DNA of 64,000 bases from an uncultured Nitrospiraceae bacterium (GTDB lineage: Bacteria; Nitrospirota; Nitrospiria; Nitrospirales; Nitrospiraceae), in the NCBI GenBank assembly GCA_963846575.1, contig CAWJWJ010000002.1:2400001-2464000 (forward strand), given 5' to 3'. The notes under the pieces are model-generated. The model did not search any database and was not told where the DNA came from. It worked only from the letters and a program-made list of their open reading frames with translations. A program made the position numbers and the translations under genes. Shown here in pieces: positions 13,867 to 47,415 of the stretch. Numbering within the stretch: position 1 is the stretch's first letter; each line of letters begins with the position of its first letter.

Positions 13867-13968
13867 TTAGCTGGTCAATCCCCAGGTGCTCCAGAGAGCG
13901 ACTGCGGCCACTGCCAACATGAACCACGCCAACTCACGATCTCCGATTTTCTTGATCATTCGTACCAT
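13867..13968 (-). CDS. 33-aa single-TM small protein (MVRMIKKIGDRELAWFMLAVAAVALWSTWGLTS), not in the ORF track
   Basis: AGGAGGTG Shine-Dalgarno directly before ATG; basic N-terminus then a hydrophobic helix; sigma54 promoter ~50 bp upstream. Confidence 0.72.
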   Translation of the reverse strand: MVRMIKKIGDRELAWFMLAVAAVALWSTWGLTS

Positions 13969-14017: not shown

Positions 14018-14033
14018 AGCAAGGCACATGCCA
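14018..14033 (-). promoter_or_regulatory. Sigma54 -24/-12 promoter of the 33-aa ORF
   Basis: TGGCATGTGCCTTGCT, close to consensus TGGCAC-N5-TTGCW. Confidence 0.8.
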
Positions 14034-14086
14034 TTGCCATTAGGCTGGAATTCAGTCTTTTTCGCTGATGAGCGAGCGGAAATCGA

Positions 14087-14117
14087 GCGGATTCGCACGC
14101 CTCGCACTGTGCGAATC
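14087..14117. promoter_or_regulatory. Candidate upstream activator site
   Basis: GATTCGCAC-N10-GTGCGAATC inverted repeat; closely resembles 27974-28001. Confidence 0.55.
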
Positions 14118-14198: not shown

Positions 14199-14855
14199 TC
14201 AGGAGGCTATTTCGGCATCACGTCCAAGCAACCTCTTTTTCGGATTGCTGATGGCTCTGGTGAGATACACAGCAAGGATCACTCCAAGGCTTTCCAGAAA
14301 CAGCAGTTGCCACCGGGCCCGCTGCAGCCACGACTCATAGGTCACGGCTTCCAGCGGCACTTCCCGCTGAATCCGCACCTCAAACTCCCCGATGGCCTTT
14401 TCGACGGTCAGGAACAACGCGCGGCCATTCCCCGCTCGCACATATAAGCGGACCTGCTCCTGCTTTTCCGTCCCGACCGCCGCCACCAGCGCTCTCTTGC
14501 TCGCGATAAACTCCTTGAGACGAGCCGCAAGCACTCCTAATCCCGCTCGCAGGCCGGGAGTCGTCGCGGTCAGATCCGCCAGCTTGGCCATTCCGGCATC
14601 CAGACGACTCTCAGCCAGGTTGATCGGTTCGAGAAAGGATTGTTGCTCCGTGAGGAGATATCCACGAAAGTTCGTCTCCACGTCCATCACCAGACGCTGG
14701 AGACGCAACACCTCCTCAAGAATTTTTGAACGGTGGAGTTGCCGCTCCTGCTGCGCGCGCCATTGATCGAAGAGAAACAGGTGCCCGAAGAAGGAGAGGG
14801 CCAGCGCGGCCGTAACGACGAGGAAGAGTCCGATGAACCGGCCACGTATGTCCAT
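14199..14855 (-). CDS. Stand-alone CHASE3 sensor-domain membrane protein
   Basis: TM-CHASE3 (DVETNFRGYLLTEQQSFLEP)-TM with only a short cytoplasmic tail. Confidence 0.8.
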   Translation of the reverse strand: MDIRGRFIGLFLVVTAALALSFFGHLFLFDQWRAQQERQLHRSKILEEVLRLQRLVMDVETNFRGYLLTEQQSFLEPINLAESRLDAGMAKLADLTATTPGLRAGLGVLAARLKEFIASKRALVAAVGTEKQEQVRLYVRAGNGRALFLTVEKAIGEFEVRIQREVPLEAVTYESWLQRARWQLLFLESLGVILAVYLTRAISNPKKRLLGRDAEIAS

Positions 14856-15079
14856 GATTGCGTGCGATGCTTTCCAGTCTACTCGACGACGTGAAGGCAA
14901 CGCGCCCTATCAATTTAACCGGCGCCTTTCGCGAAGTCCTCACGTGCGGAGGCTGCGGAGGCCTACGAGACCGCGTCATCGAGCAGCGATAGTATCCCCT
15001 GAGACCGGCCGCTACGAGCGATCGGTTTCTTCAATCGCCTACAGCACGATTCAGGCCACAGGATGAGGATGTGGTGAGG

Positions 15080-15121: not shown

Positions 15122-16411
15122 TTACAGCCAGTTCACGCGCTCGGCCGGCCGAATGTAGATCGGCTCTTCGACCTGCAGCCGCACCACTTCCTTGCCCGAC
15201 TTGTTGAAGCCCAACACCGTATCGTTGTACATCTCGAACCGCTTCCCGTGGATTTGGGTTTCAAACACTTTCGGACCCGGAATGACGTCGTACCGGAAGA
15301 CGATCTGCTGGCTGGCTCGCCAGAGCTGGAGCACCGCCAACAGTTCCCGGCTCGGCACGAGATACTTCTCAATCGCGTTGTCCACCCCCGGCCCGAACAT
15401 CTGCCGCGCATAGCCCCGCGGGCTGTGCCGCGGCGGAATGTAGAAGCCGTTGGGCTCCGTGCCCCATTGCGGATACAGCGGCAGCGCCACCTGCTCCACC
15501 CGAATGGCGTAGTACAGCGGATGCCAGCGATCTTCCGCCCACAGCCCGTCGTCGCCGATGCGCACCAGGCCCTGCAGCCGGATCTTGCCGACGCACGCCG
15601 CCATACACCGCGTTTCCATCGGCTCGCCGCCCGTCAGCGGGTCCTTGCCCTCGATCCGCGGATAGCAGGCAATACACTTCTCCGATACCCGCGTCGTGCC
15701 CCGGTACATCGGCTTCTTATACGGGCATTGCTCCACACACTTCTTGTACCCCCGGCAGCGGTTCTGGTCGATCAACACGATCCCGTCTTCCGGCCGCTTG
15801 TAGATGGCCTTCCGCGGACAGGCCGCCAGACAGCCCGGATAGGTGCAGTGGTTACAGATGCGTTGCAGATAGAAGAAGTACGTTTCATGCTCCGGCAAGC
15901 TGCTGCCGTGATCCTCCACGGTTCGTCCCGGCTAAAGCCGGTCTTGTCGATGCCCTCCACGATCGCCCGCATCGAGGTCGCCGTGTCTTCATAAATGTTC
16001 ACAAACCGCCATTCCTGGTCCGTCGGAATGTAGCCGATCGCCGCCTGGCCGACCTTGGCCCCCGCGTCGAAGATCGTCATCCCTTCGAACACCCCATACG
16101 GCGCATGGTGCTTGCGGCCCACCCGCACGTTCCACACCTGGCCGCCCGGATTCACTTGCTCGATCGAGCTGGGTGATCTTCACGTCGTAGAACTGCGGAT
16201 AGCCGCCGTACGGCTTGGTCTCCACGTTGTTCCACCACATGTATTCCTGCCCCTTCGAGAAGAGCCAGGTCGACTTGTCCGCCATCGAGCAGGTTTGACA
16301 CGCCAAACACCGGTTGATGTTGAAGACAAAGGCAAACTGCCACTTCGGATGCCGCTCCTCATACGGATACAGCATCTTCCGTCCTAGCTGCCAGTTATAG
16401 ACTTCAGGCAT
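15122..16411 (-). CDS. nxrB: Nitrite oxidoreductase beta subunit, copy 1; two frameshifts (+1 near 16164, -1 near 15908), likely sequence errors
   Basis: Three overlapping ORFs rebuild a protein nearly identical to 47510-48799 over the same 1290-nt span; Fe-S motifs CLACQTC, CNHCTYPGC, CIAC. Confidence 0.93.
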
Positions 16412-16454
16412 TGACTCTCTCCTTTCAGTCGCGAGTCGTCCCCGTCGGTCGACG

Positions 16455-16496
16455 TTCGTGAAGCGTTCGAGCTACCCTCCTCTTACGCTTCACGAA
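16455..16496. repeat. Inverted repeat in the nxrA-nxrB spacer
   Basis: TTCGTGAAGCGT-N18-ACGCTTCACGAA, perfect 12-bp arms. Confidence 0.75.
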
Positions 16497-16520
16497 GGAC
16501 GTTTCACGCGTCACATGGTC

Positions 16521-19500
16521 TTAGACTTTGATCTTGATATGTTCACCCTTGAGCCACTTGATCATGAACTCATTTTCCTGACCCGGCGTGAAACCGGTCC
16601 GGACCGGTTCCCACGGCCCACGCGCTCCGATGCCGCCGTCTTCCGCCTTGGTGATGCGGATCAGACATTCTTTCGGCACCGTGTTGACGGCATGGTGATC
16701 AATCTCAAAGCCCCATTTGAACTTCCATGCTATTGGCTTGCTTCCCGGGAAGCGAGTCGGTTTGGTGCATCGGCATGAGCCAACTGCTGGTAAATGACTG
16801 CTGCGCGCCATACCGGAAGTTCGACTGATAGCCGGTGTCCACCGCAATGGCGCGTCCGTCCGGCCGCGTCTCATGCCCCTTGACCGACTTCGGCGTCGAC
16901 ACATAGGGCGCATGCTTGGCCATCGTCACGTGGTACGGATACGCCGGGTTGTACTTCGCCCGGATCATCAGCCGCGCCACCTTGTAGTACGGGTCGGACG
17001 GCTTCCAGCCCCGATAGGGCCGGTCCACCGGGTTACCGTCCACGAAACAGTAGTCCCCGTCGTTGATGCCCCGGTCTTTCGCCGCCTGCGGGTTGATGTG
17101 GATCTGATGCTCGCCGACCCCCGGCGTCCGTTTGTCCATCCGGTAGGGATCGCCGAAGTTCGACTCGTAAATCTGCACCCAGTCGTTCACCGACCATTGG
17201 CTATGCACCCGGTGCCGGGTCTTCGGCGTCACGCAGTAGAACTGGTACCCCTTCTCCCACAACGGATTCGAACTCTGCTTGATTTCCTGCCACGGCAGCT
17301 TGATGTTGCGCACCGTCTTGTCGTCATGGTGCTGTGCCGTGATCGGAATCCCATAGTCCTCCGGCCGCACGTAGGGATTGGTCGTCATGATCGCATTCGG
17401 CAGATACGGGGTCGCCTCCGGCCCTTCCCGGTGCGAGATGAAGTTCTCCCCGTACTCGATCGCTTCCGGCTCGACACGGTAGGTCTCCAGCCGGCCCGAT
17501 CGCGTCCAATGCGGCTTCGACTCGTTGGTTTCTTCCCAGAGCGGATGCCGCGGATAGGTCCGGCACATCACCATCCAGCCCTTTTCCGACTTGAGCATCA
17601 CGTCGGCGCTGTAGCCGAAGAACGTGCTCGATGCATCGAGAATCCGTTGCACGTAAATGTCCACACGGTTCTCATACACGAACTTGTAGGTATCAGTCAT
17701 GCGTTGCTCACCGGTCATCTCCTTCAGTTTCACCGCCACACCGGCAAAACTATCGAGATCGTTTCTGGTGTCATACAACGGCCGGATGCCGCCCTTCCAG
17801 ATCTGCACCCACGGGTTTGACACGGTGGCCGTCATTTCCGGATAGGTGAACTCCATCCACGAATTCACCGCAAACGCCACGTCCGCATGGTTGACGTCCG
17901 AGGTCATCTCGATGTCCTGCGTGACCAGCATCTCGATGTTCGGATCGACGTTTTTGACCATGTCGTAGTGATGCTTGGCATTGTTGAGAATATTGACGTT
18001 CACGACCCAACGGATTTTGCTCGGGCTCGGCATGTGCGTCTTGCCGGTGAACACCTTGCGTCCGTACTTCGGCGTATTGACGATCAAGGCCTTGTCGCCG
18101 TGATTCCAATAGCCCGGCTCCTCGCCGTAGTAGTACTTGCGATACTTGATTTCCTTGCCGTGGACATTCTGATTGAGGTTCAGATTCCAGGGATCTTCGC
18201 CGAGATACACGCTGGCGCCCGCACCAGACCAGGGCGCCGCCTGCCAGATGCCGACCTTGTAATTCCCGGACCAGGTATGGCACCCGGTGCCGAATTTCCC
18301 GATATTGCCCGTCAGCATCATCACCAAGGCCGCCGCTCGTCCCATCGACGTCATATGGAAATAGTGACAGACACCTTCGCCGTTATGAATGGCCGCCGGC
18401 TTCACCGTGCCACAATCCCGCGCCCATCGCACGATGAGGTCTTTCGGCGCGCGGTTGACCTGATGCACCGTGTCGAGGTCGTAGTCCTGCAGGTGAATCG
18501 TATACATTTGATAAATCGGCATCACGTCGACTTCACGTCCGTTGAGCAGTTTCACCCGATAGGTGCCGGTCAGGGCCGGATCGATCCCGCTCTGGGCCAT
18601 GTGATAGCCGACTTGCTCCCGATGCAGCGGAACGGCATGCCCCTTGGCCAGATCCCAGACCATCATGCCCCCGAGCCGCTGGATGTTCTCCTTGCTCAGT
18701 CCCTGCACCCTGCCCGAATAGGATTTTGAGAAATCGGGCAAGTGATAGTCCTTCACTACCTCGTGCGGATCGAGATACTGCAAGGTATCCGTCCGGACCA
18801 GCAGAGGCATGTCGGTAAATTCCTTAATGAAATTGATATCCTGGAAATTCTCATCGAGGAGAATCTTACAGGCGCCGAGAAACAGCGCTCCGTCCGTCTC
18901 GGGGCGAACCGGAATCCAATAGTCGGCCCGGCTGGCCGTGGGATTGTATTCCGGGGTGATCACGACGAGCCGCGCCCCGCGTTCCATGCTCTCCAGTTTC
19001 CAGTGCGCTTCCGGCATTTTGTTTTCGACGAAGTTTTTGCCCCAACTGGTGTTGAGCTTCGTGAAGCGCATGTCGGAGAGGTCGACGTCGCAGTTCTGCG
19101 TCCCGTTCCACCAGGGCTGAGAAGGGTCTTGATCGCCGTGCCACGTATAGTTGTTCCAATACCGGCCGCCTTGCGCCTGATCCGGACTGACTTTGCGGAT
19201 CCAGCTATCCAACAGGGGCAGCACACAATTGTTGAATCGGGTATTGGCGTGCTTGCCCATCATCCCGAGGATCGGCATGCCCGCGCGATGCTTGAACGTC
19301 CGCACGCCCGCGCCCTTCATCATCTCGATCATTTCCGGAGCATACCCCTGCTCGCGGAGACGACGCGCGCCGGCTTCGCCGCTATAACGGGTCCCGATCA
19401 CGACCAGCCCTTTGGCCACGTAAGTAAAGGCCGTGTCCCAGGACACCCGGACCATATCGTCCAGGAACCGGGCGTCGAATTTGTACTTCCGTTTGTTGTC

Positions 19501-19962
19501 CGACGTCAGTTCCGGAGAGCCGTCATCCATCCACTGCTTCCAGCCTTTGCGCATCAACGGACCCTTCAACCGGTAGGGACCGTACACGCGCCGGTGGAAC
19601 GTGAAGCCCTTCAGGCACATACGAGGGTTATGGGCGAACGAGCCCCGGTTGCCGTAGAGGTCTTCATAAGTTTGGTGGTCATAGTTCTGCTCGACGCGCA
19701 TGACGACGCCGTTCCGGACGAACGCCCGGATGCGGCAGGCATGCGTATCGTTCGGTGAGCAGACCCAGGTGAAGGATGAGTCATACCGATATTGATCGTG
19801 ATAGACACGCTCCCACGACCGGTCGGGATATTCGCCTAACGGATTGTCGACCTCGACGACGGGCTGCAACGCGGTCAGTGCCAAGGCCCTGTCGGCAATG
19901 GCTGCCACCGCGACCGTCCCCGCCGAGACCTTTAAAAACTGCCTGCGGGATAACTGCATCAT
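16521..19962 (-). CDS. nxrA: Nitrite oxidoreductase alpha subunit (Mo-bisPGD), copy 1; one +1 frameshift near 16732
   Basis: Tat motif SRRQFLK, CSPNDTHAC FS0 motif, TWHGDQ. The C-terminus (WKFKWG...HIKIKV) lies in the neighbouring frame. Confidence 0.95.
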
Positions 19963-20201: not shown

Positions 20202-20217
20202 TGCAGCTCACATGCCA
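20202..20217 (-). promoter_or_regulatory. Sigma54 promoter of nxrAB copy 1
   Basis: TGGCATGTGAGCTGCA (GG-N10-GC). Confidence 0.72.
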
Positions 20218-20279
20218 CGAGACTGTCCCAGGGCGCCGACGTCTATGTGATTGAAATCACGCGCAGTTGGAATCGGTCA

Positions 20280-20359
20280 CCGATAAACCTCGTGGGCGCG
20301 GCGAATGGACCACGAAATTGCGTGGTGGGATATCACGGTTCCACCACGAAATGTCGTGG
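20280..20359. promoter_or_regulatory. Candidate enhancer sites CCACG-N6-CGTGG
   Basis: Perfect copies at 20310-20325 and 20344-20359; degenerate copy at 20280-20295. Confidence 0.65.
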
Positions 20360-20415: not shown

Positions 20416-21936
20416 CTACCGACGGGAAGGACGACAAATACCGAGCTTGTGCAATTTGCTGCGAAGCGTACTTGGCGCCAGCCCCAATCGCTCCGCCGCA
20501 CCTCCGGACCCTTCGACTCGCCACTCGAGTAACGTCAGCGTCTGAAGGATGTGCCGGCGCTCTTCGTCTTGCAACGTGCGTCGGGGCGTTGAATCGGCAA
20601 CCGGGCGCATATTCATCAGGGCGGGATCGATCCGTAACATCGGCTCATGGCACAGGATCAGTCCCCGCTCAATGATGTTCTCCAATTCCCGCACGTTGCC
20701 AGGCCAGGCATAGCGCACCAGTCGCTCCATCGTCGGCCCATCAAAGTCCTGACACGACCGTTTGAGACGCTGGGCATGAAACCGGAGAAAATGACGGGCG
20801 AGAATCGGGATGTCTTCGGGTCGCTCCCTGAGTGGAGGCATATGGATGGGAAACACATTCAGCCGATAGTACAAATCGCTGCGGAACCGCCCCTGCTCGA
20901 TAGCCGTATGCAAATTGGCGTTGGTCGCGGCGATGACACGGACGTCGACGGGAACGGCCTTCGCCCCGCCGACCCTGTCGACCAGGCCGTCCTGCAGCAC
21001 GCGCAGAAGTTTGACCTGCGCATCAAGCGGCATCTCGCCGATCTCATCGAGAAACAAGGTCCCGCCGTCGGCAAGTTCGAATCGTCCGACACGTTGCTGA
21101 TCGGCTCCGGTAAACGCTCCCCGCTCGTGGCCGAACAGTTCGCTTTCAATCAACCCGGATGGAAGCGCCGCGCAATTGAGCCGGACGAAGGCCCGGTCCC
21201 GCCGCAGGCTCCGCTCATGAATGGCACGGGCCAGCACCTCCTTGCCCGTCCCCGTTTCCCCCGTCACCAGGACGGTCGCCGTGGTCGGAGCCGCCTGCCT
21301 GGCGAGGGTCAGCACTTGCTCGAAGGCCTGGCTCCGTCCTACGACGATCCCATGATCCTGCGTGGCCTTGAGTTCCTCCGCCAGATACACGTTCTCCTGC
21401 GCCAATTGGTCACGCAGGCGGTTGATCTCCTCATAGGCATTGACGTGGGCAATGGCAAAACCGATCTGCGTGGCGACCTGCTGAAGAAAATCCACATCGC
21501 CCGGATCGGGATGACCGGCTTCGATGCTGCCGATATTTAAGGTTCCGAGGCACGCCTCCTGAACCATCATCGGCAAGTTGATCATCCGCCCCAGTCCCTC
21601 TTGCAAGTAACAGTGATCTTCGACGAACAGTTGTTCCTTTTGAAGATGGGGCCGCACATGAACCCGCTGGTGGTCGTACACCCAGCCCACCGCACTGCGC
21701 TCCCGAGGGATCATGGCGTCGCTGCGCAGCACGACTTTCGGCAGATTGGTCTCGACCGCATAGAAACGAAACGCGTCCGATTGCAGATCGTAAACGGTGA
21801 TCCCCGCCCGTTCCCAACGAACCACCTTTGCCAACTGATCGGTGACGGCACGAAACAGGCTGTGCCGGTTGCGCTGGGAATTCAGCACGTTGGTGACTGA
21901 CAGCAGGGTGCGATAATTGAGGTCGACGTTTTGCAC
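20416..21936 (-). CDS. GAF-domain sigma54 enhancer-binding protein (FhlA/NifA-like)
   Basis: N-terminal [35 protein letters not shown]-terminal HTH. Confidence 0.92.
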
Positions 21937-22213
21937 GACGAGCTTCTCCCCTCGAGAGATGATCCGCAGAGAGGCGACTCAATGGACCGTACGCGCTGGA
22001 GCAGGACCCCGCCAGGAGAGACAGATGCGAGAACAGCCCTACGGAAAAGCCTCGCTCGTCGCGGTTGCTTGATGCGCTGTTGGCATCATAAGGGGGGACC
22101 GATTCTGGATTCCAGCCGCTTTCCCGATCTTCATCGAAAAATAATCTTCAGCGCCCCGTGCCTCTAAGCCTGAGCTTCGAGAAGCTGAGTCGGCAGCCGG
22201 CCGGCACCGCCGC

Positions 22214-23761
22214 TTAATGCCGGCCGGTGCCCGGTGTGCGGCGACCCTCATCGATTCCCGGACCGGAGCGACGGCGGGAAAAGCTGCGTCCCGCTTCAGG
22301 GCCCAGCGACTCCGACCCGGGGCCGATCGACGGGTTGAGGGGGCGCGTCGTCAATCCCAGGTCAGGACTCCTTCGTGGAACGAACGAACCCGGCATGCGA
22401 TCCTGCCGCTCTCGGGTCCGGTCGACGTGCGGCGAGCTTCGCCTTCCGGAAGGTGGTCCGGCAGCCCCCTTCTTCGGAACGGCCTGCTCCATGTCTTCCT
22501 CGTCTTCAAGAAAGGAATCGATCGGTTCCTCAGCCCCGTTGACCGCCAGGTTCGTCGCCATGACTTCCTTCGCCATGGACTCCGCCATAGGCAACTCATC
22601 GGCATAGACGTCGGTCTCATATTCCGCCGTGGAGGGGGTGGCGAGCGAGGTCCAGACGGATTGCCCGGACTCGGTGATATTGATGCTCGTCACGGTCGAC
22701 AGGCCGGGCCTGATGGGGTGTTCCCGCAGTTCATCGGCCGGTAATGCGATACGCACCGGCACGCGCTCGACGATATGAATGAAGTTGCCCGTGGAATTGT
22801 CCGGGGGAAGAAGGGCAAAGGCGCTCCCACTCCCCGGCACGAGCCCCTCGACGGTGCCATGGAAGGTTTGTTTGGATCCGTACAGGCTCACGTTCACCAA
22901 CGCCGGCTGCCCGGGACGCACATGTTGGAGTTCGGTTTCGCGCAGGTTGGCTTCGACCCACAAATGATCCAGCGGCACGATCGTCATCAGGAGGGCGCCG
23001 GGCTGGACGCGATCTCCCACTTGCGCCTTGCGTTTGGCGACATAGCCGGAAATCGGAGCACGGATTTGTTGCCTCGCATATTCCAGGTGCGCCTCAATCA
23101 GCTGATGTTTGGCCAAATCGACGGCCGGATGTTCCCTGACCGTCGTCCCCCCGATCTGCGCGTCGAGCGAGTCCAACTCCGCCTGCGTCTCCCGCACTTC
23201 CGCTTCCAGACTCGCAATCTTATCCGCCGTGTTCTGCAGAATCTGTTTGGAAATCGCCCCGCTCGGAGACGCCTGCCGGTACCGCTCCATGTCATGATCG
23301 GCCAGCTCCAATCGCGCCGTGCGCGATCGTAACTTTTCCCCCAATTGCTTCCGATTGATAAACAGTGAGGCGATACGACGGACTTCCTCTCCCAATCGCC
23401 CCCTCGCCCGACCCAGGGCGGCATAGGCCTGGTGCTCATCAAGGCGAATCATCAGATCGCCCCGATTCACGAATTGTGTCTCTTCCGCCAGGACCTGCGT
23501 AATGATGCCCGAGGCCTGCGCCGCCACCGGGACAAGGTTGCCGGTGACATAGGCGTTATCGGTCCGTATCCAAAACCGGTCGTGGGTCCACCAGTAGATG
23601 AGATATCCGACAGTGGCCATCAGCACCAGCCCGGCCACCATCAGCAGGCGTCGGTTGCGGCGCGCACGAATGGCCTTCGGATGGATGCGGTAGGAGGTTG
23701 GCGGCGGAGTCCCACCCGGGGACTGAGGACCAGAGGACATATCTGCAGTTGTCGTCGTCAT
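22214..23761 (-). CDS. emrA: EmrA/HlyD-family periplasmic adaptor with a long C-terminal tail
   Basis: TDNAYVTGN, WVEANLRETEL, FALLPPDNSTGNFIHIVERVPVRI. Confidence 0.88.
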   Translation of the reverse strand: MTTTTADMSSGPQSPGGTPPPTSYRIHPKAIRARRNRRLLMVAGLVLMATVGYLIYWWTHDRFWIRTDNAYVTGNLVPVAAQASGIITQVLAEETQFVNRGDLMIRLDEHQAYAALGRARGRLGEEVRRIASLFINRKQLGEKLRSRTARLELADHDMERYRQASPSGAISKQILQNTADKIASLEAEVRETQAELDSLDAQIGGTTVREHPAVDLAKHQLIEAHLEYARQQIRAPISGYVAKRKAQVGDRVQPGALLMTIVPLDHLWVEANLRETELQHVRPGQPALVNVSLYGSKQTFHGTVEGLVPGSGSAFALLPPDNSTGNFIHIVERVPVRIALPADELREHPIRPGLSTVTSINITESGQSVWTSLATPSTAEYETDVYADELPMAESMAKEVMATNLAVNGAEEPIDSFLEDEEDMEQAVPKKGAAGPPSGRRSSPHVDRTRERQDRMPGSFVPRRSPDLGLTTRPLNPSIGPGSESLGPEAGRSFSRRRSGPGIDEGRRTPGTGRH

Positions 23762-23765
23762 TGAT

Positions 23766-25274
23766 TTAGCTCGGATTTTGTTTCGGTCGTTTTTCAATAT
23801 CGGGATTGTGATAACCGCCGCCCAACGATTCGATCAGATCGACGGCCGCCACGAGTTGATCGCTCTCCAATGCTCTCAACGCATATTCCTGCTCCAGGAC
23901 CGGATATCGGTGCCGCAACACCTCGCGGTCATCGTCGAGACCGTTTACGAGTCGTATCTTCGCCAGCCGCCAGTCATCCCCGAGAGACGCCACCAGCCGT
24001 TTGTGCGAGGCCATGATCTCGCTGGTCGTTTGCCAGGCGCTCAAGCTATCGGCAACTTCCCGCATAGCGTCCAACAAGGTCTCGTTGTATAGTTCCACCG
24101 CCGCATCATATTCCGCCCGTTGCGCGCCCAGTTCCCCCCGCAGCCGTCCGCCCTCGAACCAAGGCATCCGTAAACCGGGCGCCAGTCCATAGCTGAAGCT
24201 TTGGCCGCTGAAGAGAAAATTGGCGAGCTTGTCGGTGCCCTTCGCCAGCGTCAACGCATTGAATCCCACAAACCCCGTCAGGTCGATCGTGGGATAGAAC
24301 TGAGTGGTCGCCACCCTGACCATTCGCGAGGCGGCGTGAGCCCGATAGAGGGCCGCCGCCAGGTCCGGCCGATGGACCAGCAGGCTCATCGACAAATGAT
24401 CCGGTGCCGCAATGTGACTGGGCACTATCACCTTCGGCCTGGCAAACAGATGCGCCGCTTCGTCAGGCCCCCTGCCGGCCAACCGCGCCAGCAAATGCCG
24501 CTGCACATCCAGCTGATCGCGGATTGCCGCCTGCCGCTTGAACGCCGCTTCATAGTCGGCCACCGCCATTTTCACCGGTTGATCATTGTCCAGGCCGAGC
24601 CGGAATCGGGTTTCCGCCAGGGTTTTGAGATCACGACGAATACCGACAATGGTTTTCACAATGGTGAGTTGCTGCTGAAGAGCCTGTCCCCGGAAGTAGG
24701 CGCGCGCAATGCCGGTCGTCAACCGTAACCGCACTTCGGCAGTTTCCGCCTCCTCTGCCGCCGCATGCCCCAGGGATGCCTCCAGCATCGCCCGGTTCTT
24801 TCCCCAAAAATCGAACTCATACCGGAAGCTCAACGGGTTGATGATCCCATACATGATCCGGATGCCCGCCACTTCCGGATTGAGGGCGGCAAACACGCCG
24901 CGTTGCGAGATGCGCTCATAGGTCAATGAGGCATCGGCTTCCAGAAACGGCAGGAGCCGCGCGCCTTCTACCTTCACGAGCGATTGCGCCTGCCGCAGCC
25001 TGGCGGAGGCCATCTTCAACCCGGGGTTGTCCTTGAGCGCCTGGTCGATCAGTCCATTCAATTCCGGATTACCGAACTGTTCCCACCACCGGTCCTCCGG
25101 CCACTTCTGGAGCCGGCTCGTCACTTCCGCTAACGTTTCCGTCATCTCCGGCGGTTCGAGATACTGCGCGGGTGGATCACCCTTCGGAATCCAGGCACAG
25201 CTGGCGAAGCTGAGCGCGCAGCCGATACCGACACAGAGTTGCAACCGGTGCGCGGCCGTTGAACGCGAACTCAT
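23766..25274 (-). CDS. NodT/TolC-family outer membrane efflux lipoprotein
   Basis: Lipobox-like FASC, WWEQFGNPELNGLI, RPDL, SLGGG. Confidence 0.9.
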   Translation of the reverse strand: MSSRSTAAHRLQLCVGIGCALSFASCAWIPKGDPPAQYLEPPEMTETLAEVTSRLQKWPEDRWWEQFGNPELNGLIDQALKDNPGLKMASARLRQAQSLVKVEGARLLPFLEADASLTYERISQRGVFAALNPEVAGIRIMYGIINPLSFRYEFDFWGKNRAMLEASLGHAAAEEAETAEVRLRLTTGIARAYFRGQALQQQLTIVKTIVGIRRDLKTLAETRFRLGLDNDQPVKMAVADYEAAFKRQAAIRDQLDVQRHLLARLAGRGPDEAAHLFARPKVIVPSHIAAPDHLSMSLLVHRPDLAAALYRAHAASRMVRVATTQFYPTIDLTGFVGFNALTLAKGTDKLANFLFSGQSFSYGLAPGLRMPWFEGGRLRGELGAQRAEYDAAVELYNETLLDAMREVADSLSAWQTTSEIMASHKRLVASLGDDWRLAKIRLVNGLDDDREVLRHRYPVLEQEYALRALESDQLVAAVDLIESLGGGYHNPDIEKRPKQNPS

Positions 25275-26869
25275 GGCACCTCCTCAATTAATTCTTCGGC
25301 ACGCCGGCGCCGCAAATCCTCGGCCTGGGTCGGCGCCAAGCGCAAGTGCGTCGGGTGAGCGAACCACACGAGAATTCCCAGTGCCACAAACATGAAGCTG
25401 GCCACAAGAAACGCATCGTTGAGGCCCAGGATTGCCGCTTCCTGCCTGATCAGGAGTGCGAGTTTGCCCTGGACTTCCGCCGGCGACAGCCCCGCAGCGC
25501 CCAATTTTGCCGACAATTGCGCCATCGGATCGAAGGATATCGACTGCCGTCCCCCGAAATGATCGGCTAAATGAAGTTGATGGAAGTGGGTGCGGCGAAA
25601 CAGGACGATCCCCTGGAACGTGATCCCGAACGCGCCGGCGGCCACGCGTAACAGGTTGGCGACCTCCGCCGCCCGCATGACCAACGGACCGGACAGGCCA
25701 TGCAAGGTCAACACGGTCACCGGCGTAAAGAAGGATCCCAGGAACACCCCCTCCACCACCATCGGCCAGAACAGTTGCTCATAGGACTGAGGATCGTCGT
25801 ACAGACCCAACCAATAGAAAGTCCAGGCAAATCCCAGACTGTTCAAACAGATCAACCAGCGGGCATCGATATATTTGCAGAGCGAATGCATGACTGCGAT
25901 GGCCGGTGCGCCCAGCAAGACCAGGGGGAGCAACGCCATCCCCGCCAGTTTCGATGAGTAGCCCAGAATGAGTTGAATCTGCACGATCAAGAGTGACAAC
26001 AGCCCTTGGATCGAAAAAAATCCGAGGGTCAGGCTGATCAGGCCGATCACAAAATTGCGATGCATGAAGAGTCGCAAGTCGAGTGTCGGATGGCGCTCTC
26101 CCAGTTCCCAAATAACGAAACAGGGAAAGGCAATCACCAGGACCACTGCAATGACCTGAAGCAAGGGGGAGTCCAGCCAGTCGAAATCGTTGCCCATGTT
26201 GAGCAACGTTTGAAGGCCCAGGAGCAAACCAGCCAGCAGCACAAACCCGACCAGATCAAAACGGGCGTACCGGCGGTGAAAGCCCCGGCCGTACAACAGG
26301 GCCCCGAGCGTCCCGACAATCACGAGGGTCAGCACAAAATCCAGGTAGAAGAGAAACCTCCATCCCAGCACATAGGCGATGTACCCCCCCACCGGCATGC
26401 CGATGGTGAAGGGGGTAATGCTGAACAATCCCCAGACCGTCAGCGCGACCGCCTTCAACCGTTTCGGGTATTCGTTGAGTAACATCGATTGGGCCAGCGG
26501 CAGGGTAATGCCCCCGGCAATGCCCTGCACGATCCGCGCTGGCACGAACTGGGCGAGCGTCTGACTGTCGCCGCAGAGAAAGGAGGCCACGCTGTAGACC
26601 CCGAACGCCGCGATCAAGAGACGGTAGTCGCCGATCCGGCCCGACAAGTATCGCGCGAGGGGAAAACCCAGGGCCAACCCGACCATAAAGTCGGTTTGCG
26701 CCCAGGTGAGAAAACTCGGCAGCACGCCGCCCAGATCTCCCGACACGTGTGGCAGCAGCGCGATATAGGACCCGGCGTTGAACAGCACGACGATGTGCGC
26801 CAAGCCGAGTACGGCATTGAAGAGCACGAATCGCCAGCCATGTAATCGCCGGAAATACACAGTCGCCAT
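25271..26869 (-). CDS. emrB: DHA2/EmrB-type MFS efflux permease
   Basis: Multi-TM protein; ARIVQGIAGG, WRFLF, DLRLF; located next to emrA and tolC-type genes. Confidence 0.85.
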   Translation of the reverse strand: MATVYFRRLHGWRFVLFNAVLGLAHIVVLFNAGSYIALLPHVSGDLGGVLPSFLTWAQTDFMVGLALGFPLARYLSGRIGDYRLLIAAFGVYSVASFLCGDSQTLAQFVPARIVQGIAGGITLPLAQSMLLNEYPKRLKAVALTVWGLFSITPFTIGMPVGGYIAYVLGWRFLFYLDFVLTLVIVGTLGALLYGRGFHRRYARFDLVGFVLLAGLLLGLQTLLNMGNDFDWLDSPLLQVIAVVLVIAFPCFVIWELGERHPTLDLRLFMHRNFVIGLISLTLGFFSIQGLLSLLIVQIQLILGYSSKLAGMALLPLVLLGAPAIAVMHSLCKYIDARWLICLNSLGFAWTFYWLGLYDDPQSYEQLFWPMVVEGVFLGSFFTPVTVLTLHGLSGPLVMRAAEVANLLRVAAGAFGITFQGIVLFRRTHFHQLHLADHFGGRQSISFDPMAQLSAKLGAAGLSPAEVQGKLALLIRQEAAILGLNDAFLVASFMFVALGILVWFAHPTHLRLAPTQAEDLRRRRAEELIEEVP

Positions 26870-26885
26870 GCTTCAGCTCCACCAC

Positions 26886-27767
26886 TCAATACGACGGAGA
26901 GTAGCCCGGGTGGTCGGCCCGGGACTGCCCCGGTTCAGCTTGGACTGCCGCCTGGGCGGATGGCCCCGAGGACGCCGTGGCGCCGCTATGGGCGGCGTAA
27001 ATCGCCAATCCCGTAAACACCATACCCCCGACCAGATTTCCCGCCGTCACGGGAATCTGGTTCCACAGCCACCAGGTCGAGACGCTCACATTCGCCCCCA
27101 GGATCATCCCGACGGGAATGAGAAACATGTTTACGACCGCATGTTCGAAGCCCTGAGAAAAGAACAACAGGGTCGGACCCCAGATGGCGAGAATCTTTCC
27201 GGAAAAGGACGTGGACATAAAGGCTGCCACGACCGCCAGGCTGACCATCCAGTTACACAGCATGCCCTTGGTGAAGGCGGCCAGAAGCCCGGACGTGCCG
27301 TGGGAGGCATAGTAGTTGGTTTTTGCTTCGGCGATCGTGATGAGTTTGGTACCGACGGCATTGAGCTGGGCGTCTCCCGCAGTCGTCAGGGCAATCGCAA
27401 ACAACCCCGCGTAGAGCGTGCTGCCCAACAGATTGCCCAGGAACACCCAGCCCCAGTTTGAGAAGACGTGGCGAAGACCGGCGTTCTTGTGGCCGGCGAC
27501 GGCCGCGCAGGGCAGGAGTGCAAAGCTGCCGGTGATGATCTCCGCCCCGAGCAGAATAGCCAGTGCCAGGCCGAACGGAAAGAGGAGACTCCCGAGGATC
27601 CAGTACCCCGTTTCAACTGCCACCGTCACGGCCATGCTCGTCCCGATGCCCAGATAGGCGCCGGCCAGCATACCGCGCAGGAGCAGTTGTCGAGGCGGCA
27701 ACCTCAGTTTCAACGCTCCGCTGGCCAGCATACTATCCACTACACCGTGTGGCTTCACATAGTCCAT
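26886..27767 (-). CDS. Formate/nitrite transporter (FNT) family channel
   Basis: GNLLG, KGMLCNWMV, GFEHAVVNMF, GNLVGG. Confidence 0.92.
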   Translation of the reverse strand: MDYVKPHGVVDSMLASGALKLRLPPRQLLLRGMLAGAYLGIGTSMAVTVAVETGYWILGSLLFPFGLALAILLGAEIITGSFALLPCAAVAGHKNAGLRHVFSNWGWVFLGNLLGSTLYAGLFAIALTTAGDAQLNAVGTKLITIAEAKTNYYASHGTSGLLAAFTKGMLCNWMVSLAVVAAFMSTSFSGKILAIWGPTLLFFSQGFEHAVVNMFLIPVGMILGANVSVSTWWLWNQIPVTAGNLVGGMVFTGLAIYAAHSGATASSGPSAQAAVQAEPGQSRADHPGYSPSY

Positions 27768-27848
27768 CGCATCCTCCCTGTGAACCGTTCAAGGCACACT
27801 CTGCGATCCGACAGTGCTGCCGGATAACACTCCCGCTACCCAGGCCCT

Positions 27849-27864
27849 AGCAATCCACATGCCT
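27849..27864 (-). promoter_or_regulatory. Sigma54 promoter of the FNT-emr operon
   Basis: AGGCATGTGGATTGCT (GG-N10-GC, TTGCT). Confidence 0.75.
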
Positions 27865-27973
27865 CCGGTCATTCACAGTTCGGTCCGCGTCGAGTTTTGT
27901 CGTGGCGCTGCCATCGAGTGTCCCAGAGCGACCATACTAATCAAGCTAGGGTTTCTTCCAGGGGGGAAATAGG

Positions 27974-28001
27974 GCGGGATCGCACTCGCGCACGGTGCGA
28001 A
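27974..28001. promoter_or_regulatory. Candidate upstream activator site
   Basis: GCGGGATCGCACTCGCGCACGGTGCGAA, similar to 14087-14115. Confidence 0.55.
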
Positions 28002-28164
28002 ATCGCTCGAAAACAGAATACACCTGGAGGATAAGCGGGATACGCATGCGTTGGGATCCCCTCCGGGAGGTCCGACTCAGCCCGGCTCCAGCACTCGCCT
28101 CTGTCAACCAGGTTGCACAACGACGGCGCCGAAGACTACGATACTCTCGGAGACTAAAGGCCCC

Positions 28165-30120
28165 GTGAGCGACCTCCTAAGCAATTTACCCATCGCGCGT
28201 AAGCTGTTTCTTGCGTCGGTTATTCCTGCCCTGACAGTCCTTATCCTCAGTATATTGACCTACCGAAGCGTCGAGACATTTTCCGACGACGAAGGGCAAT
28301 TGAACGACATCTATTATTCCCAGCGGCTGGCCTCCGAATACCTCCGGCTTATCGTGGATCTCGAAACCGGATTCAGAGGCTTCGTATTGACGAACCAGGA
28401 ACACTATCTGTTTCCCTATCGAACCGCCCAAGATCACGTCTTGAACCTGGGCCGGACGCTGGAAGCGAAAGTCTATCAATATGATGACCAGCGGGCGCTG
28501 ATTGACTCCATCCAGAAATTGGTCAGACAGTTTATCGAGGAAAAGGAACAGCTGATCGAGGCGGTGAAAGCCGACCACACGAACGAGGCGCGACTCTATA
28601 TCGAGGAAGGCAAGGGGCGGGCGTTAATGCTGAAAATCCGCCAGGAGATGGGCCAGTTCGAGCATCTGGCGCAAGCCGCCCTGAACAACCGGCTGGTGAA
28701 ACTCGCTCAGGACCGCGACACCATGCTGATGACCATCTTGGGGGGCGGCCTCTTCGCGTTGATCTGTATGGTGGGAGTGCTGCACCTCATTGCCCACTCC
28801 ATCACCACGCCAATCGAACGGTTGGCCAAAGCCGTCGTCGCATCCGATAGTAATCCGGTTCCTCAAGTCCCCATTCTACCGGGCACGGATGAGATCGGAA
28901 ATCTCTCCCGGGTGATGCACGCCATGAGTTCGGCCATTCATTCCCACATTGCGACGGTCGAAGAATCGGAAGCGAACTTACGGCAATTGAACCAGGACCT
29001 GGCGGCATCGGAAGGTAAATATCGCAGTATCGTCGATCATGCGCCCTTCGGCATTTTTACCACGCGCGGCATGACCCTCGTCTTCAGCAACCGGTACAAC
29101 AGCACGCTCGCGGGACTCGACCCCAGGGAAGAGAAGAATCCGGACGCCGTCCGGCACGCCATTCACCCGGATGACCGGGAACGGGTCATCATGGAATTTT
29201 CCGAGGCAGTGGCCGAAGGGCGGCCGTACGAAACCGTCTTCCGGTTTCTCCATGCGGACGGGACCGTCCGTAAAGTCCTGAGCCGCCGCATCCCGATTCG
29301 AGACCAGGCCGGGCAAGTGGTGATGTATCAAGGATTCAATGTGGATATCACCGCGCTCGACCTGATGCAAACGCGCCTGCGCCGGGCGGAACGCCTCGCC
29401 ACCCTGGGACAGGTCGCCGCGGGCATCGCGCATGAAATCAGAAATCCGCTCGTCGGCATCGGCTCGACCACGTCGCTGCTGCTGGACGACATCGACCCCG
29501 GTGACGGGCGCCGCGCCGATCTGGAGGTCATTCTTCAGGAGACCAAACGTCTGGACCGTATCGTGAATCAAATCATCGACTATGCCCGTCCTCGTGAAAT
29601 CGTGGCGCTCGGTTTCGACATGGTACAGCTTGTGCACGAGGTTACGAAGCTCCTGGATGAACCGCTCGTGCGCAAGCAATCGACTATCCGCCTCTCTGCG
29701 CCGGCCGGTGCCTACACCGTTCAAGCAGACCGTGATCAATTGAAACAAGTGCTGCTCAATATTATTCAAAATGCGATCGAAGCCACTCCGCCGGGACATC
29801 CCATTACCGTGTCCCTGGCTCAGCTCGCGCACGGAGTCGAGTCAGGATTGGAGATTGTCGTTACCGACAGAGGCAGCGGAATCAGCCCTGCCCACCTGCC
29901 GCATGTGTTCGAGCCGTTCTTCACCAGCGGCAAACCGAGGGGCACGGGCCTGGGACTGGCGATTTGCAGAAACATTCTCGATGCGCACGGCGGAGACATG
30001 ACCCTGGAAAGCCGGTTAGGCGGCGGCACGACCGTTCGCATCTGGTGCCCGTTACGCCAACAGCCACAGCGAATGCAGGAAGAGGATACCCATGCGGGCC
30101 ACGATTTACGTCACGGATGA
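28165..30120 (+). CDS. CHASE3-HAMP-PAS sensor histidine kinase (NtrB-like)
   Basis: DLETGFRGF, AHEIRNPL H-box, QVLLNIIQNA, GTGLGL. Confidence 0.92.
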   Translation: MSDLLSNLPIARKLFLASVIPALTVLILSILTYRSVETFSDDEGQLNDIYYSQRLASEYLRLIVDLETGFRGFVLTNQEHYLFPYRTAQDHVLNLGRTLEAKVYQYDDQRALIDSIQKLVRQFIEEKEQLIEAVKADHTNEARLYIEEGKGRALMLKIRQEMGQFEHLAQAALNNRLVKLAQDRDTMLMTILGGGLFALICMVGVLHLIAHSITTPIERLAKAVVASDSNPVPQVPILPGTDEIGNLSRVMHAMSSAIHSHIATVEESEANLRQLNQDLAASEGKYRSIVDHAPFGIFTTRGMTLVFSNRYNSTLAGLDPREEKNPDAVRHAIHPDDRERVIMEFSEAVAEGRPYETVFRFLHADGTVRKVLSRRIPIRDQAGQVVMYQGFNVDITALDLMQTRLRRAERLATLGQVAAGIAHEIRNPLVGIGSTTSLLLDDIDPGDGRRADLEVILQETKRLDRIVNQIIDYARPREIVALGFDMVQLVHEVTKLLDEPLVRKQSTIRLSAPAGAYTVQADRDQLKQVLLNIIQNAIEATPPGHPITVSLAQLAHGVESGLEIVVTDRGSGISPAHLPHVFEPFFTSGKPRGTGLGLAICRNILDAHGGDMTLESRLGGGTTVRIWCPLRQQPQRMQEEDTHAGHDLRHG

Positions 30121-31483
30121 CGAACCAGCCATTCGCAGCGCCGTTGTGAAACGCCTCTCGCGGCGTCACCACACCGTCACCGGCTTCGAGTCGGGAGAGG
30201 ACCTCATCAGGGCTGTGTCGCAGCATCTGCCCGACCTGGTTCTGCTGGACCTCAAGATGCCGGGCATGGGAGGGCTTGAGACGCTCCGGCAACTCCGCCC
30301 CCTTGCCCCGCAGACGCTCATCATCATGCTGACCGCGTATGGCACGGTCGAGGATGCGGTCGAAGCGATGCGGCTGGGCGCCTATGACTTTTTGATCAAA
30401 TCGGTGGATTTGTCCGCCGTCGATCCCGTGGTCGATCGAGCCCTCGAGTTTCTCGCGCTTCGCCAGCGCCTGGAGTTCTCGCTTGAAGATCAAAACAGCC
30501 CTTACGCCCTCTCCAACGTCGATGCGCGCAGTCCCGCCATGCAATTGTTGTTAGGGCAGGTTCGAGACGTGGCGCAGAATGCCAAATCGAGCGTCCTCCT
30601 CCAGGGTGAAACCGGGACGGGCAAGGAATTCCTCGCACGCGTCATTCACTGCAACAGCCCGCGGGCCACGGGCCCCTTCGTCGCCGTCAATTGCACGGCC
30701 ATTCCCAAGGAGCTCTTCGAAAGCGAACTGTTCGGCTTCGAACGGGGTGCTTTTACCGGCGCGCACCAACGCAAACGAGGACTGTTGGAAAAAGCCGAGG
30801 GCGGCAGCCTGTTTCTCGACGAAATCGGCGACCTGGACCCTGTCATGCAAGCCAAACTACTCCGGGTCCTGCAGGAACGAACGTTCCGGCGCTTAGGGGG
30901 CATGGAAGACCTGTCAGTGGATTTCCGCTTGATGACCGCGACCAATCGGGACCTCAAGCGGGAGACGGCGCGGGGCACCTTTCGCGAGGATCTCTATTTC
31001 CGGCTCAACGTCGTCACGTTCGAACTTCCCCCGCTGCGGGTCCGCACCGAGGATGTCCTTCCCCTCTGCAGGCAGGCCCTGCTGCGATTCGGAAAAGAGT
31101 TCGGCAAGGAGGTGGTGGATATCGAACCCGAGGCGCAAGACCTCCTCCAACGCTACAGCTATCCCGGCAATATCCGCGAACTCCAAAACATCATCGAGCG
31201 CGCCATGATCCTCTGTCATGACAAGACTCTGACCGCCGGCTGCCTGCCGAAAGAACTGCGTGACCAGACTCCGCAAATCGCGGTCGCTACGGCCCAGGGC
31301 GACCACCCCGCGTTACGGATCGAGATGGTGCTCGGCCAGCAAACGCTGGCGGATATCGAGTCGGCCCTGATCGAGGAAGTCGTGCGTCTCTCGGACCACA
31401 ACAAGACTCTGGCAGCCAAACACCTCGGGCTGACACGATTCGCCCTGGATCGCCGCCTCAAAAAACAGATGGAACACGATTGA
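30092..31483 (+). CDS. Sigma54 response regulator (NtrC/AtoC type)
   Basis: Receiver (LLDLKMPG), [17 protein letters not shown]; overlaps the kinase gene. Confidence 0.93.
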   Translation: MRATIYVTDDEPAIRSAVVKRLSRRHHTVTGFESGEDLIRAVSQHLPDLVLLDLKMPGMGGLETLRQLRPLAPQTLIIMLTAYGTVEDAVEAMRLGAYDFLIKSVDLSAVDPVVDRALEFLALRQRLEFSLEDQNSPYALSNVDARSPAMQLLLGQVRDVAQNAKSSVLLQGETGTGKEFLARVIHCNSPRATGPFVAVNCTAIPKELFESELFGFERGAFTGAHQRKRGLLEKAEGGSLFLDEIGDLDPVMQAKLLRVLQERTFRRLGGMEDLSVDFRLMTATNRDLKRETARGTFREDLYFRLNVVTFELPPLRVRTEDVLPLCRQALLRFGKEFGKEVVDIEPEAQDLLQRYSYPGNIRELQNIIERAMILCHDKTLTAGCLPKELRDQTPQIAVATAQGDHPALRIEMVLGQQTLADIESALIEEVVRLSDHNKTLAAKHLGLTRFALDRRLKKQMEHD

Positions 31484-31569
31484 CTGCAGTGGCACGGCGC
31501 TCTCGTCATTCCCGTCTTGTACTGGAGCGATGCGGGGCGGATAATGCGTCGATGGTACAGGAGTCCGTC

Positions 31570-37011: not shown

Positions 37012-37015
37012 CCTG

Positions 37016-47400: not shown

Positions 47401-47415
47401 GGATCGATGGTCACG

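What the first reader, a model, noticed from the sequence alone, without database searches (positions are those of the whole stretch)
20416..31483. Candidate undescribed system: sigma54-driven FNT channel plus tripartite Emr pump feeding a GAF activator and nxrAB
Seen: FNT, emrB, tolC-type and emrA are packed as an operon (gaps 16, -4 and 4 bp) behind a sigma54 promoter. The operon is divergent from a CHASE3 kinase/regulator pair and is followed on the same strand by a GAF activator and nxrAB. Known: FNTs conduct nitrite, formate or hydrosulfide; FhlA senses formate through GAF domains; some Nitrospira reduce nitrate with formate. Inference: a cascade in which a periplasmic signal switches on an anion channel and a trans-envelope exporter, and the anion then activates this nxr copy. 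The pump may export nitrite, nitrate or a related anion rather than drugs. The substrates cannot be read from sequence.
Basis: partly seen in the sequence, partly recalled or inferred. Interest (0 to 1): 0.8.

Follow-up and report, generated by a model that had tools for sequence, protein, structure and literature searches.

The report
Nitrite channel plus rewired efflux pump
Many nitrite-oxidising Nitrospira carry a conserved operon joining a nitrite-type anion channel to an unusual three-part efflux pump, which likely protects the cell from nitrite and nitric-oxide damage; the neighbouring nitrite-oxidase genes appear to be regulated separately.

Summary
In detail: FNT-emrB-OMF-emrA (gaps 16, -4, 4) behind a sigma54 site, divergent CHASE3 kinase/regulator, then GAF activator and nxrAB. 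The four-gene module is widespread: 64 of 201 Nitrospiraceae genomes have FNT beside emrB, and 0 of 38 amoA-positive genomes have this pump. The cascade and formate readings are not supported. This genome lacks the fds-focA cluster. The operon and nxrA carry different enhancer palindromes. The GAF-nxrAB block splits the module from a co-regulated 33-residue membrane peptide that follows emrA in other genera. The FNT's nearest relatives sit in nitrite/cyanate-assimilation loci. EmrB lacks E. coli's Asp29 in 60 of 60 sequences and has a new conserved polar site. Methylotroph homologues lie beside NO-defence genes (13 of 13 long loci of one type), four behind NorR with predicted NorR boxes. Best reading (0.5): an inducible nitrite/NO-stress module in which the channel vents nitrite to periplasmic NXR and the pump expels nitrosated by-products. 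A bolder reading (0.17) is that the pump exports nitrite or nitrate itself. The substrate is untested. I found no description in ten literature searches.

The parts
26886..27767 (-). FNT-family anion channel, 293 aa, NasH/NAR1-like; likely nitrite
   Evidence: PF01226; Thr79, Lys149, Glu208, His209 kept; sister sequences beside cynS/nirA/glnA; 42% to the FNT between nirB and nitrate reductase in P. denitrificans
25271..26869 (-). EmrB-like 14-helix DHA2 MFS transporter, 532 aa, with Asp29->Asn31 and a conserved polar site (H25, Y35, Q58, D60, R112, Q288, R408)
23766..25274 (-). NodT/TolC-type outer-membrane factor lipoprotein, 502 aa
   Evidence: TIGR01845 306.8 bits against a cut-off of 210
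22214..23761 (-). EmrA-like periplasmic adaptor with a low-complexity C-terminal tail
   Evidence: best NCBIfam hit EmrA, 303.8 bits, below its cut-off of 563; start checked
27849..27864 (-). predicted sigma54 -24/-12 promoter of the operon
   Evidence: 27 of 27 loci with divergent kinase
27988..28000 (.). UAS1 palindrome TCGCAC-N-GTGCG(A), predicted enhancer of the CHASE3-system regulator
   Evidence: 25 of 27 loci at up to 2 mismatches; 1.2% of shuffles
28165..30120 (+). CHASE3-HAMP-PAS histidine kinase; signal unknown
   Evidence: a homologue in 125 of 201 genomes
30092..31483 (+). REC-AAA+-HTH sigma54 response regulator, inferred UAS1 binder
13867..13968 (-). conserved 33-aa membrane peptide, predicted member of the same regulon
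   Evidence: 70 of 201 genomes; none of the 38 amoA-positive ones
14018..14114 (-). second UAS1 (14102-14114) and sigma54 site (14033-14018) in front of the peptide
20416..21936 (-). GAF-AAA+-HTH sigma54 activator (NifA-like architecture), part of a separately regulated cassette
20202..20359 (-). UAS2 pair CCACGA-N4-TCGTGG (20310-20325, 20344-20359) and sigma54 site (20217-20202) of nxrA1
15122..19962 (-). nxrA1-nxrB1 with single-base indels near 16739, 16164 and 15909; neighbouring cassette, not part of the operon
14199..14900 (-). stand-alone membrane CHASE3 protein at the far end of the GAF-nxrAB block

Best explanation
The four genes and a 33-residue membrane peptide form a conserved module of canonical nitrite-oxidising Nitrospira that likely acts as an inducible defence against nitrite and nitric-oxide stress, with the FNT channel predicted to vent cytoplasmic nitrite to the periplasm and the rewired Emr-type pump predicted to expel nitrosated small molecules past both membranes. 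Shown: gene order, conservation, promoter motifs, residue changes, distribution and gene neighbourhoods. Inferred steps: (1) the CHASE3 kinase phosphorylates its regulator, which binds UAS1 and opens the sigma54 promoters of the operon and the peptide; (2) nitrous acid diffuses in and dissociates, and the inside-negative potential drives nitrite out through the channel to periplasmic NXR, in the way fluoride channels relieve HF (an analogy from established knowledge); (3) the pump removes nitroso/nitro by-products, as MdtEF does in E. coli. The GAF activator binds UAS2 and controls nxrAB1 separately. That block was probably inserted into the module in the ancestor of genera g1 and g12, so pump and nxr share a context but do not form a relay.
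For: FNT lies directly upstream of emrB in 64 of 75 FNT-clade hits, and 64 of 72 genomes with this emrB subfamily have the pair. 0 of 38 amoA-positive genomes carry the pump; within genus g10 it is in 8 of 10 amoA-negative and 0 of 20 amoA-positive genomes. Pump-linked FNTs form one clade (SH-aLRT 100, quick tree) next to FNTs from cynS/nirA/glnA loci. Proteobacterial homologues preceded by a conserved lipoprotein gene have NorR, qNor, Hcp, an Rrf2 regulator or a truncated globin nearby in 13 of 13 loci of 11 kb or more. In four of them NorR (over the cut-off in the two tested) is divergent, and the intergenic DNA has a sigma54 site (shuffle p 0.003 or less) and 1-2 GT-N7-AC boxes (p 0.002-0.085). 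NnrS lies near the pump in M. trichosporium OB3b and N. moscoviensis. A Crp/Fnr gene and a NirK-like gene precede it in 11 of 17 fetched g2 loci. Separate EmrB clades sit directly behind nxrB in other Nitrospirales (L132, L135, L137, L138, L141, L152; L150). The Nitrococcus mobilis copy nests among Nitrospirales sequences beside an IS1634 transposase. The likely orthologues are near silent (7-9 RPKM) in an unstressed chemostat. Precedent for efflux against nitrosative damage: PMC4790292 (passages), PMC8562477 (abstract).
Against: No transport, expression or binding data exist for this module. The Nitrospira regulator is not a known NO sensor, and the CHASE3 and GAF ligands could not be read. 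The kinase is more widespread than the pump (125 against 72 of 201 genomes), so it is not dedicated to it. In 8 of 8 loci with the kinase downstream there is no sigma54 site or UAS1 before FNT. Only 4 of 23 long alphaproteobacterial-type loci have an NO-defence neighbour, and one lies beside a DUF2309/NuoL-like pair. The 13 lipoprotein-type loci are kin, and comammox absence reflects only about two lineages. The pump persists without an intact FNT in N. moscoviensis, methylotrophs and most nxrB-linked loci, so the channel is dispensable to it. The closest solved FNT is the algal protein LCIA, which I recall as a bicarbonate channel.
Confidence: 0.5

Rival explanations
1. The pump itself exports nitrite or nitrate from the cytoplasm across both membranes; the rewired polar site is an oxyanion site.
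For: Asp29 is lost in 60 of 60 sequences, while two Arg, one His, two Gln and a Tyr are invariant. The pump is co-transcribed with an anion channel and has landed beside nxrAB in at least two EmrB clades. It appears to have moved into Nitrococcus.
Against: The fold is that of EmrB (TM 0.80), and no NarK-family model matched. An Asp (D60) reappears next to the Arg112 position in 54 of 60. NXR is periplasmic, whereas Emr pumps take substrate from the cytoplasm or inner leaflet (PMC13139468, passages), so bulk nitrate would bypass it. Near silence in a nitrite-oxidising chemostat argues against a core flux role.
Confidence: 0.17
2. It is a general efflux pump for organic acids, uncouplers or fatty acids, and the FNT and nitrogen genes are neighbours by history.
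For: The nearest characterised relatives are EmrB and FarB. E. coli D29N/D221N still showed antiport in vesicles (PMC13139468, passages). Many alphaproteobacterial loci have unrelated neighbours.
Against: FNT-emrB adjacency survives at least three different arrangements of the regulators. NorR-linked promoters. Absence from amoA-positive genomes. D29N abolishes E. coli drug resistance in vivo (PMC13139468).
Confidence: 0.18
3. One reading: a periplasmic signal switches on channel and pump, and the imported anion (formate or nitrite) activates the GAF protein and this nxr copy.
For: The full order is conserved in 19 of 20 fetched g1 loci and in g12. In L078 and L067 a related GAF activator with UAS2 stands upstream of the pump operon itself, so both targets can answer the same kind of signal.
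Against: No FDH or focA in G000. Different enhancers. 0 of 37 loci from other genera show nxr. The peptide's position marks GAF-nxrAB as a separable block. The activator is not FhlA.
Confidence: 0.07
4. The FNT is a bicarbonate channel and the module serves inorganic-carbon or pH balance.
For: The best solved match is LCIA (E 4e-31, against about 1e-18 for FocA/HSC). One Methylocystis pump lies beside a DUF2309/NuoL-like pair. Na+/H+ exchangers are frequent neighbours in Methylocystis.
Against: Much closer bacterial relatives (57-64% identity) sit in nitrite/cyanate-assimilation loci. LCIA belongs to the NAR1 nitrite-channel group (recalled). An inside-negative potential would drive bicarbonate out through a passive channel.
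Confidence: 0.06

Closest known systems
E. coli EmrAB-TolC (DHA2 MFS tripartite pump; PDB 8ZAL/8ZAR; PMC13139468, passages)
   Same: 14-helix fold (TM 0.80, 28% identity), EmrA-type adaptor, outer-membrane factor, Arg109 and Arg406 equivalents kept.
   Different: Asp29 is Asn/Gly/Ser in 60 of 60; Ser57 is Asp in 54 of 60; invariant His25 and Gln58; dedicated OMF inside the operon; fused to an FNT operon; sigma54 control instead of EmrR.
FNT of the Paracoccus denitrificans nas cluster (NasH; name recalled) and Nitrospira NirC-type FNTs beside cynS/nirA
   Same: FNT family with pore residues kept; 42% and 57-64% identity.
   Different: Here it heads an efflux operon with no reductase or cyanase nearby; the genome keeps a separate FNT beside glnA-cynS.
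E. coli MdtEF (PMC4790292, passages)
   Same: Proposed role: an efflux pump that removes nitrosated by-products.
   Different: RND family, ArcA-controlled, no linked anion channel; unrelated in sequence.
NifA-like regulator beside nxrAB in N. moscoviensis and N. defluvii (PMC6606698, passages)
   Same: A GAF sigma54 activator directly upstream of one nxrAB copy; already described.
   Different: The passages I read give no enhancer motif, no link to a pump and no peptide.
NorR regulons (norVW, norAB, hmp; recalled)
   Same: Methylotroph homologues of the pump occupy the position of a NorR target.
   Different: An efflux pump rather than an NO reductase; Nitrospira uses a CHASE3 two-component system or a GAF activator that is not NorR.

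Membership tests
EmrAB-TolC-type tripartite MFS pump | 14-helix DHA2 transporter of EmrB fold | tested here: met
   Foldseek top hit 8zal_J, TM 0.80; TIGR00711 229.8 against a cut-off of 230.2
EmrAB-TolC-type tripartite MFS pump | EmrA-type adaptor and outer-membrane factor encoded with it | tested here: met
   best hit EmrA (below the equivalog cut-off) and TIGR01845 above the cut-off
EmrB proper (multidrug/H+ antiporter) | Asp29-Arg109-Gln112 triad | tested here: not met
   Asp in 0 of 60, Arg in 60 of 60, Gln in 17 of 60; EmrB model 269.9 against 925
EmrB proper (multidrug/H+ antiporter) | confers drug or uncoupler resistance | not testable with these tools
   needs expression assays
FNT channels | PF01226 domain with Thr/His pore residues | tested here: met
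   210.6 bits against 34.6; T79, K149, E208, H209 aligned
FocA formate channel | equivalog score and formate-metabolism context | tested here: not met
   107.9 against 290.1; no fds cluster in G000
Enterobacterial NirC | equivalog score | tested here: not met
   65.7 against 293; closer to NasH/NAR1-like FNTs
Nitrite-conducting FNTs | nitrite conductance | not testable with these tools
   inferred from the neighbourhoods of sister sequences only
NarK/NNP nitrate-nitrite porters | match to the NarK family model | tested here: not met
   no NarK model among the 12 families matching the MFS protein at E 1e-8
FhlA formate sensor | two GAF domains, about 690 aa, equivalog score | tested here: not met
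   506 aa, one GAF stretch, 409 against 830
NorR | equivalog score (window's GAF activator) | tested here: not met
   347.7 against 476; by contrast the methylotroph neighbours score 647-718
AcrZ-like small pump accessories | peptide binds the inner-membrane transporter | tested here: inconclusive
   complex prediction gave no answer

The most novel reading that the evidence does not exclude
A tripartite MFS pump has been rewired to export nitrite or nitrate, paired with a nitrite channel and a small membrane peptide. It was recruited beside nxrAB more than once, passed between unrelated nitrite oxidisers, and is missing from comammox. It would be an inorganic-oxyanion exporter spanning both membranes and a genetic determinant of nitrite tolerance in nitrifiers.
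Probability: 0.17. Interest if true: 0.85.

Novelty: new variant of a known kind. Interest (0 to 1): 0.62.

Why it matters
How canonical Nitrospira tolerate their own toxic substrate, and why they differ from comammox and from each other in sensitivity to nitrite and free nitrous acid, is an open question with direct use in wastewater treatment, where nitrite oxidisers are suppressed on purpose. This module gives a concrete candidate with predicted promoters, two new enhancer motifs, a marker residue change and homologues in genetically tractable methanotrophs. The UAS2 motif also makes the long-noted differential control of nxrAB copies testable. If the pump moves the oxyanion itself, it would extend the chemistry known for DHA2 tripartite pumps.

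Tried and rejected
The EmrB + peptide complex prediction gave no answer (score 0.00, controls not folded). The Atlas search with the peptide gave only unnamed clusters under 0.9, and the methylotroph lipoprotein matched unnamed lipoproteins. PDB searches with the GAF and CHASE3 domains gave weak structural-genomics hits and no ligand. The sigma70/terminator scan was at chance level and showed no terminator between emrA and the GAF gene, so read-through is not excluded. The careful FNT tree did not finish; the quick tree was used, and the EmrB tree is FastTree only. The N. marina proteome tables show an FNT up 2.9-fold at low oxygen, but it lies beside nirA and is not this module. Supplements of PMC9381531 held no rows for the pump locus tags. 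Two look-ups in earlier findings returned nothing. The 2010 N. defluvii genome paper was not held. Rows dropped before counts: 2 genomes with only 24% identity MFS hits (G005, G157), giving 72 instead of 74; weak second hits in G150, G161 and G181; 5 of 18 lipoprotein-type loci shorter than 11 kb. Formate was rejected on genome content, FhlA and NorR identity on scores, and a single regulatory relay on the enhancer motifs.
Full report
Setting. The window comes from a near-complete Nitrospira genome (G000, 4.2 Mb, 2 contigs, 99.9% complete). It has two nxrAB copies, both in the window, and no amoA. Its EmrB is 92% identical to that of N. defluvii (L111), so I treat genus g1 as lineage I (label recalled).

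Observation. All genes, strands and gaps are as reported. The sigma54-type site upstream of FNT is weak on its own but conserved in 27 of 27 relative loci with the divergent kinase, against 1.2% of shuffles.

Distribution. In 201 Nitrospiraceae genomes the MFS protein matched 74, 72 after dropping two generic 24% hits. The FNT matched 75, and in 64 it lies within 400 bp upstream of emrB. Of the other 11, two are split over contig ends and nine are a 57-64% identical group without the pump. None of the 38 amoA-positive genomes has the pump; within genus g10 it is in 8 of 10 amoA-negative and 0 of 20 amoA-positive genomes. These genomes are kin, so this is about two independent absences. Across 301 genomes of the phylum the FNT clade is almost confined to this family. 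Outside it, the pump without FNT occurs in Nitrococcus mobilis, Methylobacter, Methylocaldum, Methylococcus, Methylocystis and Methylosinus.

Link to nxr. I fetched 60 loci from the genomes. The GAF activator follows emrA in 19 of 20 g1 loci (nxrA visible in 17; two end at contig ends) and in g12. None of 37 loci from other genera shows an nxr gene; in single-contig genomes such as G001, G024 and G040 the listed nxrA copies lie more than 0.7 Mb away. In a second EmrB clade the pump lies directly behind nxrB (L132, L135, L137, L138, L141, L152), with the FNT intact only in L141, and L150 is a further case in a third clade. The association with nxr therefore arose more than once, but it is not obligatory.

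Two regulons. A palindrome TCGCAC-N-GTGCG(A) (UAS1) precedes the FNT promoter in 25 of 27 divergent-kinase loci. In G000, 2 of 11 matches are followed by a sigma54 site: the FNT operon and a small ORF at 13968-13867. That ORF encodes a conserved 33-aa membrane peptide, found in 70 of 201 genomes and in none of the amoA-positive ones (24 of the 70 have only weak, mostly partial hits). In g8, g10, g25 and g37 it follows emrA within 0.2-0.8 kb. It does so too in G136, a g1 genome without the GAF-nxrAB1 block. A different palindrome, CCACGA-N4-TCGTGG (UAS2), usually paired 34 bp apart, follows the GAF gene whatever lies next: nxrA in g1, emrB in L078, a Crp gene and the FNT operon in L067. It was not found at one mismatch in L050 or L059. 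I infer that the CHASE3 regulator binds UAS1, that the GAF activator binds UAS2, and that GAF-nxrAB1 plus the stand-alone CHASE3 gene was inserted into the module. Binding is untested. In 8 of 8 loci with the kinase downstream neither motif precedes FNT, and the kinase is present in 125 of 201 genomes, so it has other targets.

Formate. G000 has no FDH over the cut-off. The fdsGBA-focA cluster of G055 is missing between conserved flanking genes. The only other FNT lies between glnA and cynS. 24 of 64 module genomes lack an FDH hit over the cut-off, and 51 of 96 FDH genomes lack the pump. Divergent FDHs such as that of N. marina (PMC12342949, passages) were not tested.

The channel. The pore residues are kept. 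Pump-linked FNTs form one clade beside sequences from cynS, nirA and glnA loci. The P. denitrificans homologue (42%) lies between nirB and an assimilatory nitrate reductase. Nitrite is the likeliest substrate, with cyanate possible. The best solved match is algal LCIA.

The pump. The model (pLDDT 78.7) matches E. coli EmrB best (TM 0.80). E. coli Asp29 aligns to Asn31. Among 60 of the 120 listed homologues that I aligned, this position is N in 49, G in 10 and S in 1. Ser57 aligns to Asp60 (54 of 60), and H25, Y35, Q58, R112, Q288 and R408 are invariant. In E. coli, D29N abolishes drug resistance in vivo, although vesicle antiport persisted in a D29N/D221N mutant (PMC13139468, passages). The site is thus rewired, but its substrate cannot be read.

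Neighbourhoods elsewhere. Proteobacterial loci in which a conserved lipoprotein gene precedes emrB have NorR, qNor, Hcp, Rrf2 or a truncated globin nearby in 13 of 13 cases of 11 kb or more. In L140, L143, L193 and L212 a NorR-type gene is divergent (647 and 672 bits against 476 in the two tested), and the intergenic DNA has a sigma54 site and GT-N7-AC boxes (consensus recalled). NorR is a dedicated NO sensor (established knowledge). Alphaproteobacterial-type loci show such neighbours in only 4 of 23. In g2 a Crp/Fnr gene and a NirK-like gene (198 bits against 296) lie upstream in 11 of 17 loci. In N. moscoviensis, NITMOv2_3226-3228 match the pump by order and length (orthology not tested by sequence), have NnrS six genes upstream, lack the FNT and were at 7-9 RPKM (supplement rows). 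The NifA-like nxr regulator ranked 14th in the same study. The Nitrococcus EmrB nests among Nitrospirales sequences (FastTree 100) with an IS1634 transposase nearby, which suggests transfer; no clade test was run.

Mechanism. I commit to a nitrite/NO-stress module (0.5). Nitrous acid enters by diffusion, the channel lets the membrane potential return nitrite to the periplasm where NXR consumes it, and the pump removes nitrosated compounds in one step past the periplasm. Every functional step is inferred.

Literature. Ten searches found no description of an FNT-Emr operon in nitrifiers; searches returned no papers. I read passages of PMC12342949, PMC6606698, PMC12542776, PMC12516955, PMC13139468, PMC5665590, PMC5767232, PMC4790292 and PMC12998223; passages and section 16 of PMC8115632; the abstract of PMC8562477; and supplement rows or searches for PMC6606698, PMC8115632, PMC9381531, PMC12998223 and PMC12342949. 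PMC12342949 notes that NirC proteins outside cynS loci may have another function. Its Fig. S14, Fig. S12 of PMC12998223 and the 2010 N. defluvii genome paper could not be seen and may draw this neighbourhood. Most subscription papers were not searchable.

Verdict. A real, apparently undescribed module built from known parts, with a distinct transporter subfamily, a new small protein and two new enhancer motifs. New variant of a known kind; interest 0.62.

Noticed in passing
window 15122-19962 (-): nxrA1 has a +1 indel near 16739 and nxrB1 a +1 near 16164 and a -1 near 15909 relative to the intact copy. Similar breaks occur in nxrA of G172, G196 and L119 and in a large multicopper oxidase of G000. 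They may be assembly errors; untested.
   Followed up: partly
window 14199-14900 (-): Stand-alone membrane CHASE3 protein without a kinase domain, 32% identical to the kinase's sensor; a possible modulator.
   Followed up: no
window 31480-40147 (+): A second kinase (HisKA_3) and LuxR-type regulator conserved with the module in g1, followed by an RND triple (OMF, MFP, AcrB/CzcA-type).
   Followed up: no
window 42037-48799 (+): Second, intact nxrAB behind a REC sigma54 regulator, with neither UAS1 nor UAS2 upstream and an AT-richer promoter region.
   Followed up: partly
window 22214-22550 (-): EmrA ends in a roughly 110-residue Pro/Arg/Ser-rich tail that is absent from methylotroph and nxrB-linked homologues.
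   Followed up: no
G000:C2:715522-717078: A 60% identical paralogue of the GAF activator with no UAS2 match at one mismatch; such paralogues are common in the family.
   Followed up: partly
L132, L135, L137, L138, L139, L141, L152: The pump is followed by a 1632-aa multicopper-oxidase-like gene; FNT survives only as fragments in most of these loci.
   Followed up: partly
L144:9001-15449: The Nitrococcus mobilis pump groups with Nitrospirales sequences and has an IS1634 transposase nearby; possible transfer between nitrite oxidisers.
   Followed up: partly
L146:8093-9004 and 17 similar loci: An unnamed lipoprotein of about 300 aa takes the FNT's place before emrB in methylotroph-type loci.
   Followed up: partly
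G069:C16:246-4859: In one amoA-positive genome a homologue of the CHASE3 kinase lies about 3 kb from amoA.
   Followed up: no
L036, L042, L054: Second, FNT-less copies of the pump form their own clade in three Nitrospira genomes.
   Followed up: no
window 6808-8082, 59880-62524, 57287-59176: Three multiheme cytochrome genes, and an H+-pyrophosphatase ORF that covers only 541 of 645 profile positions.
   Followed up: no
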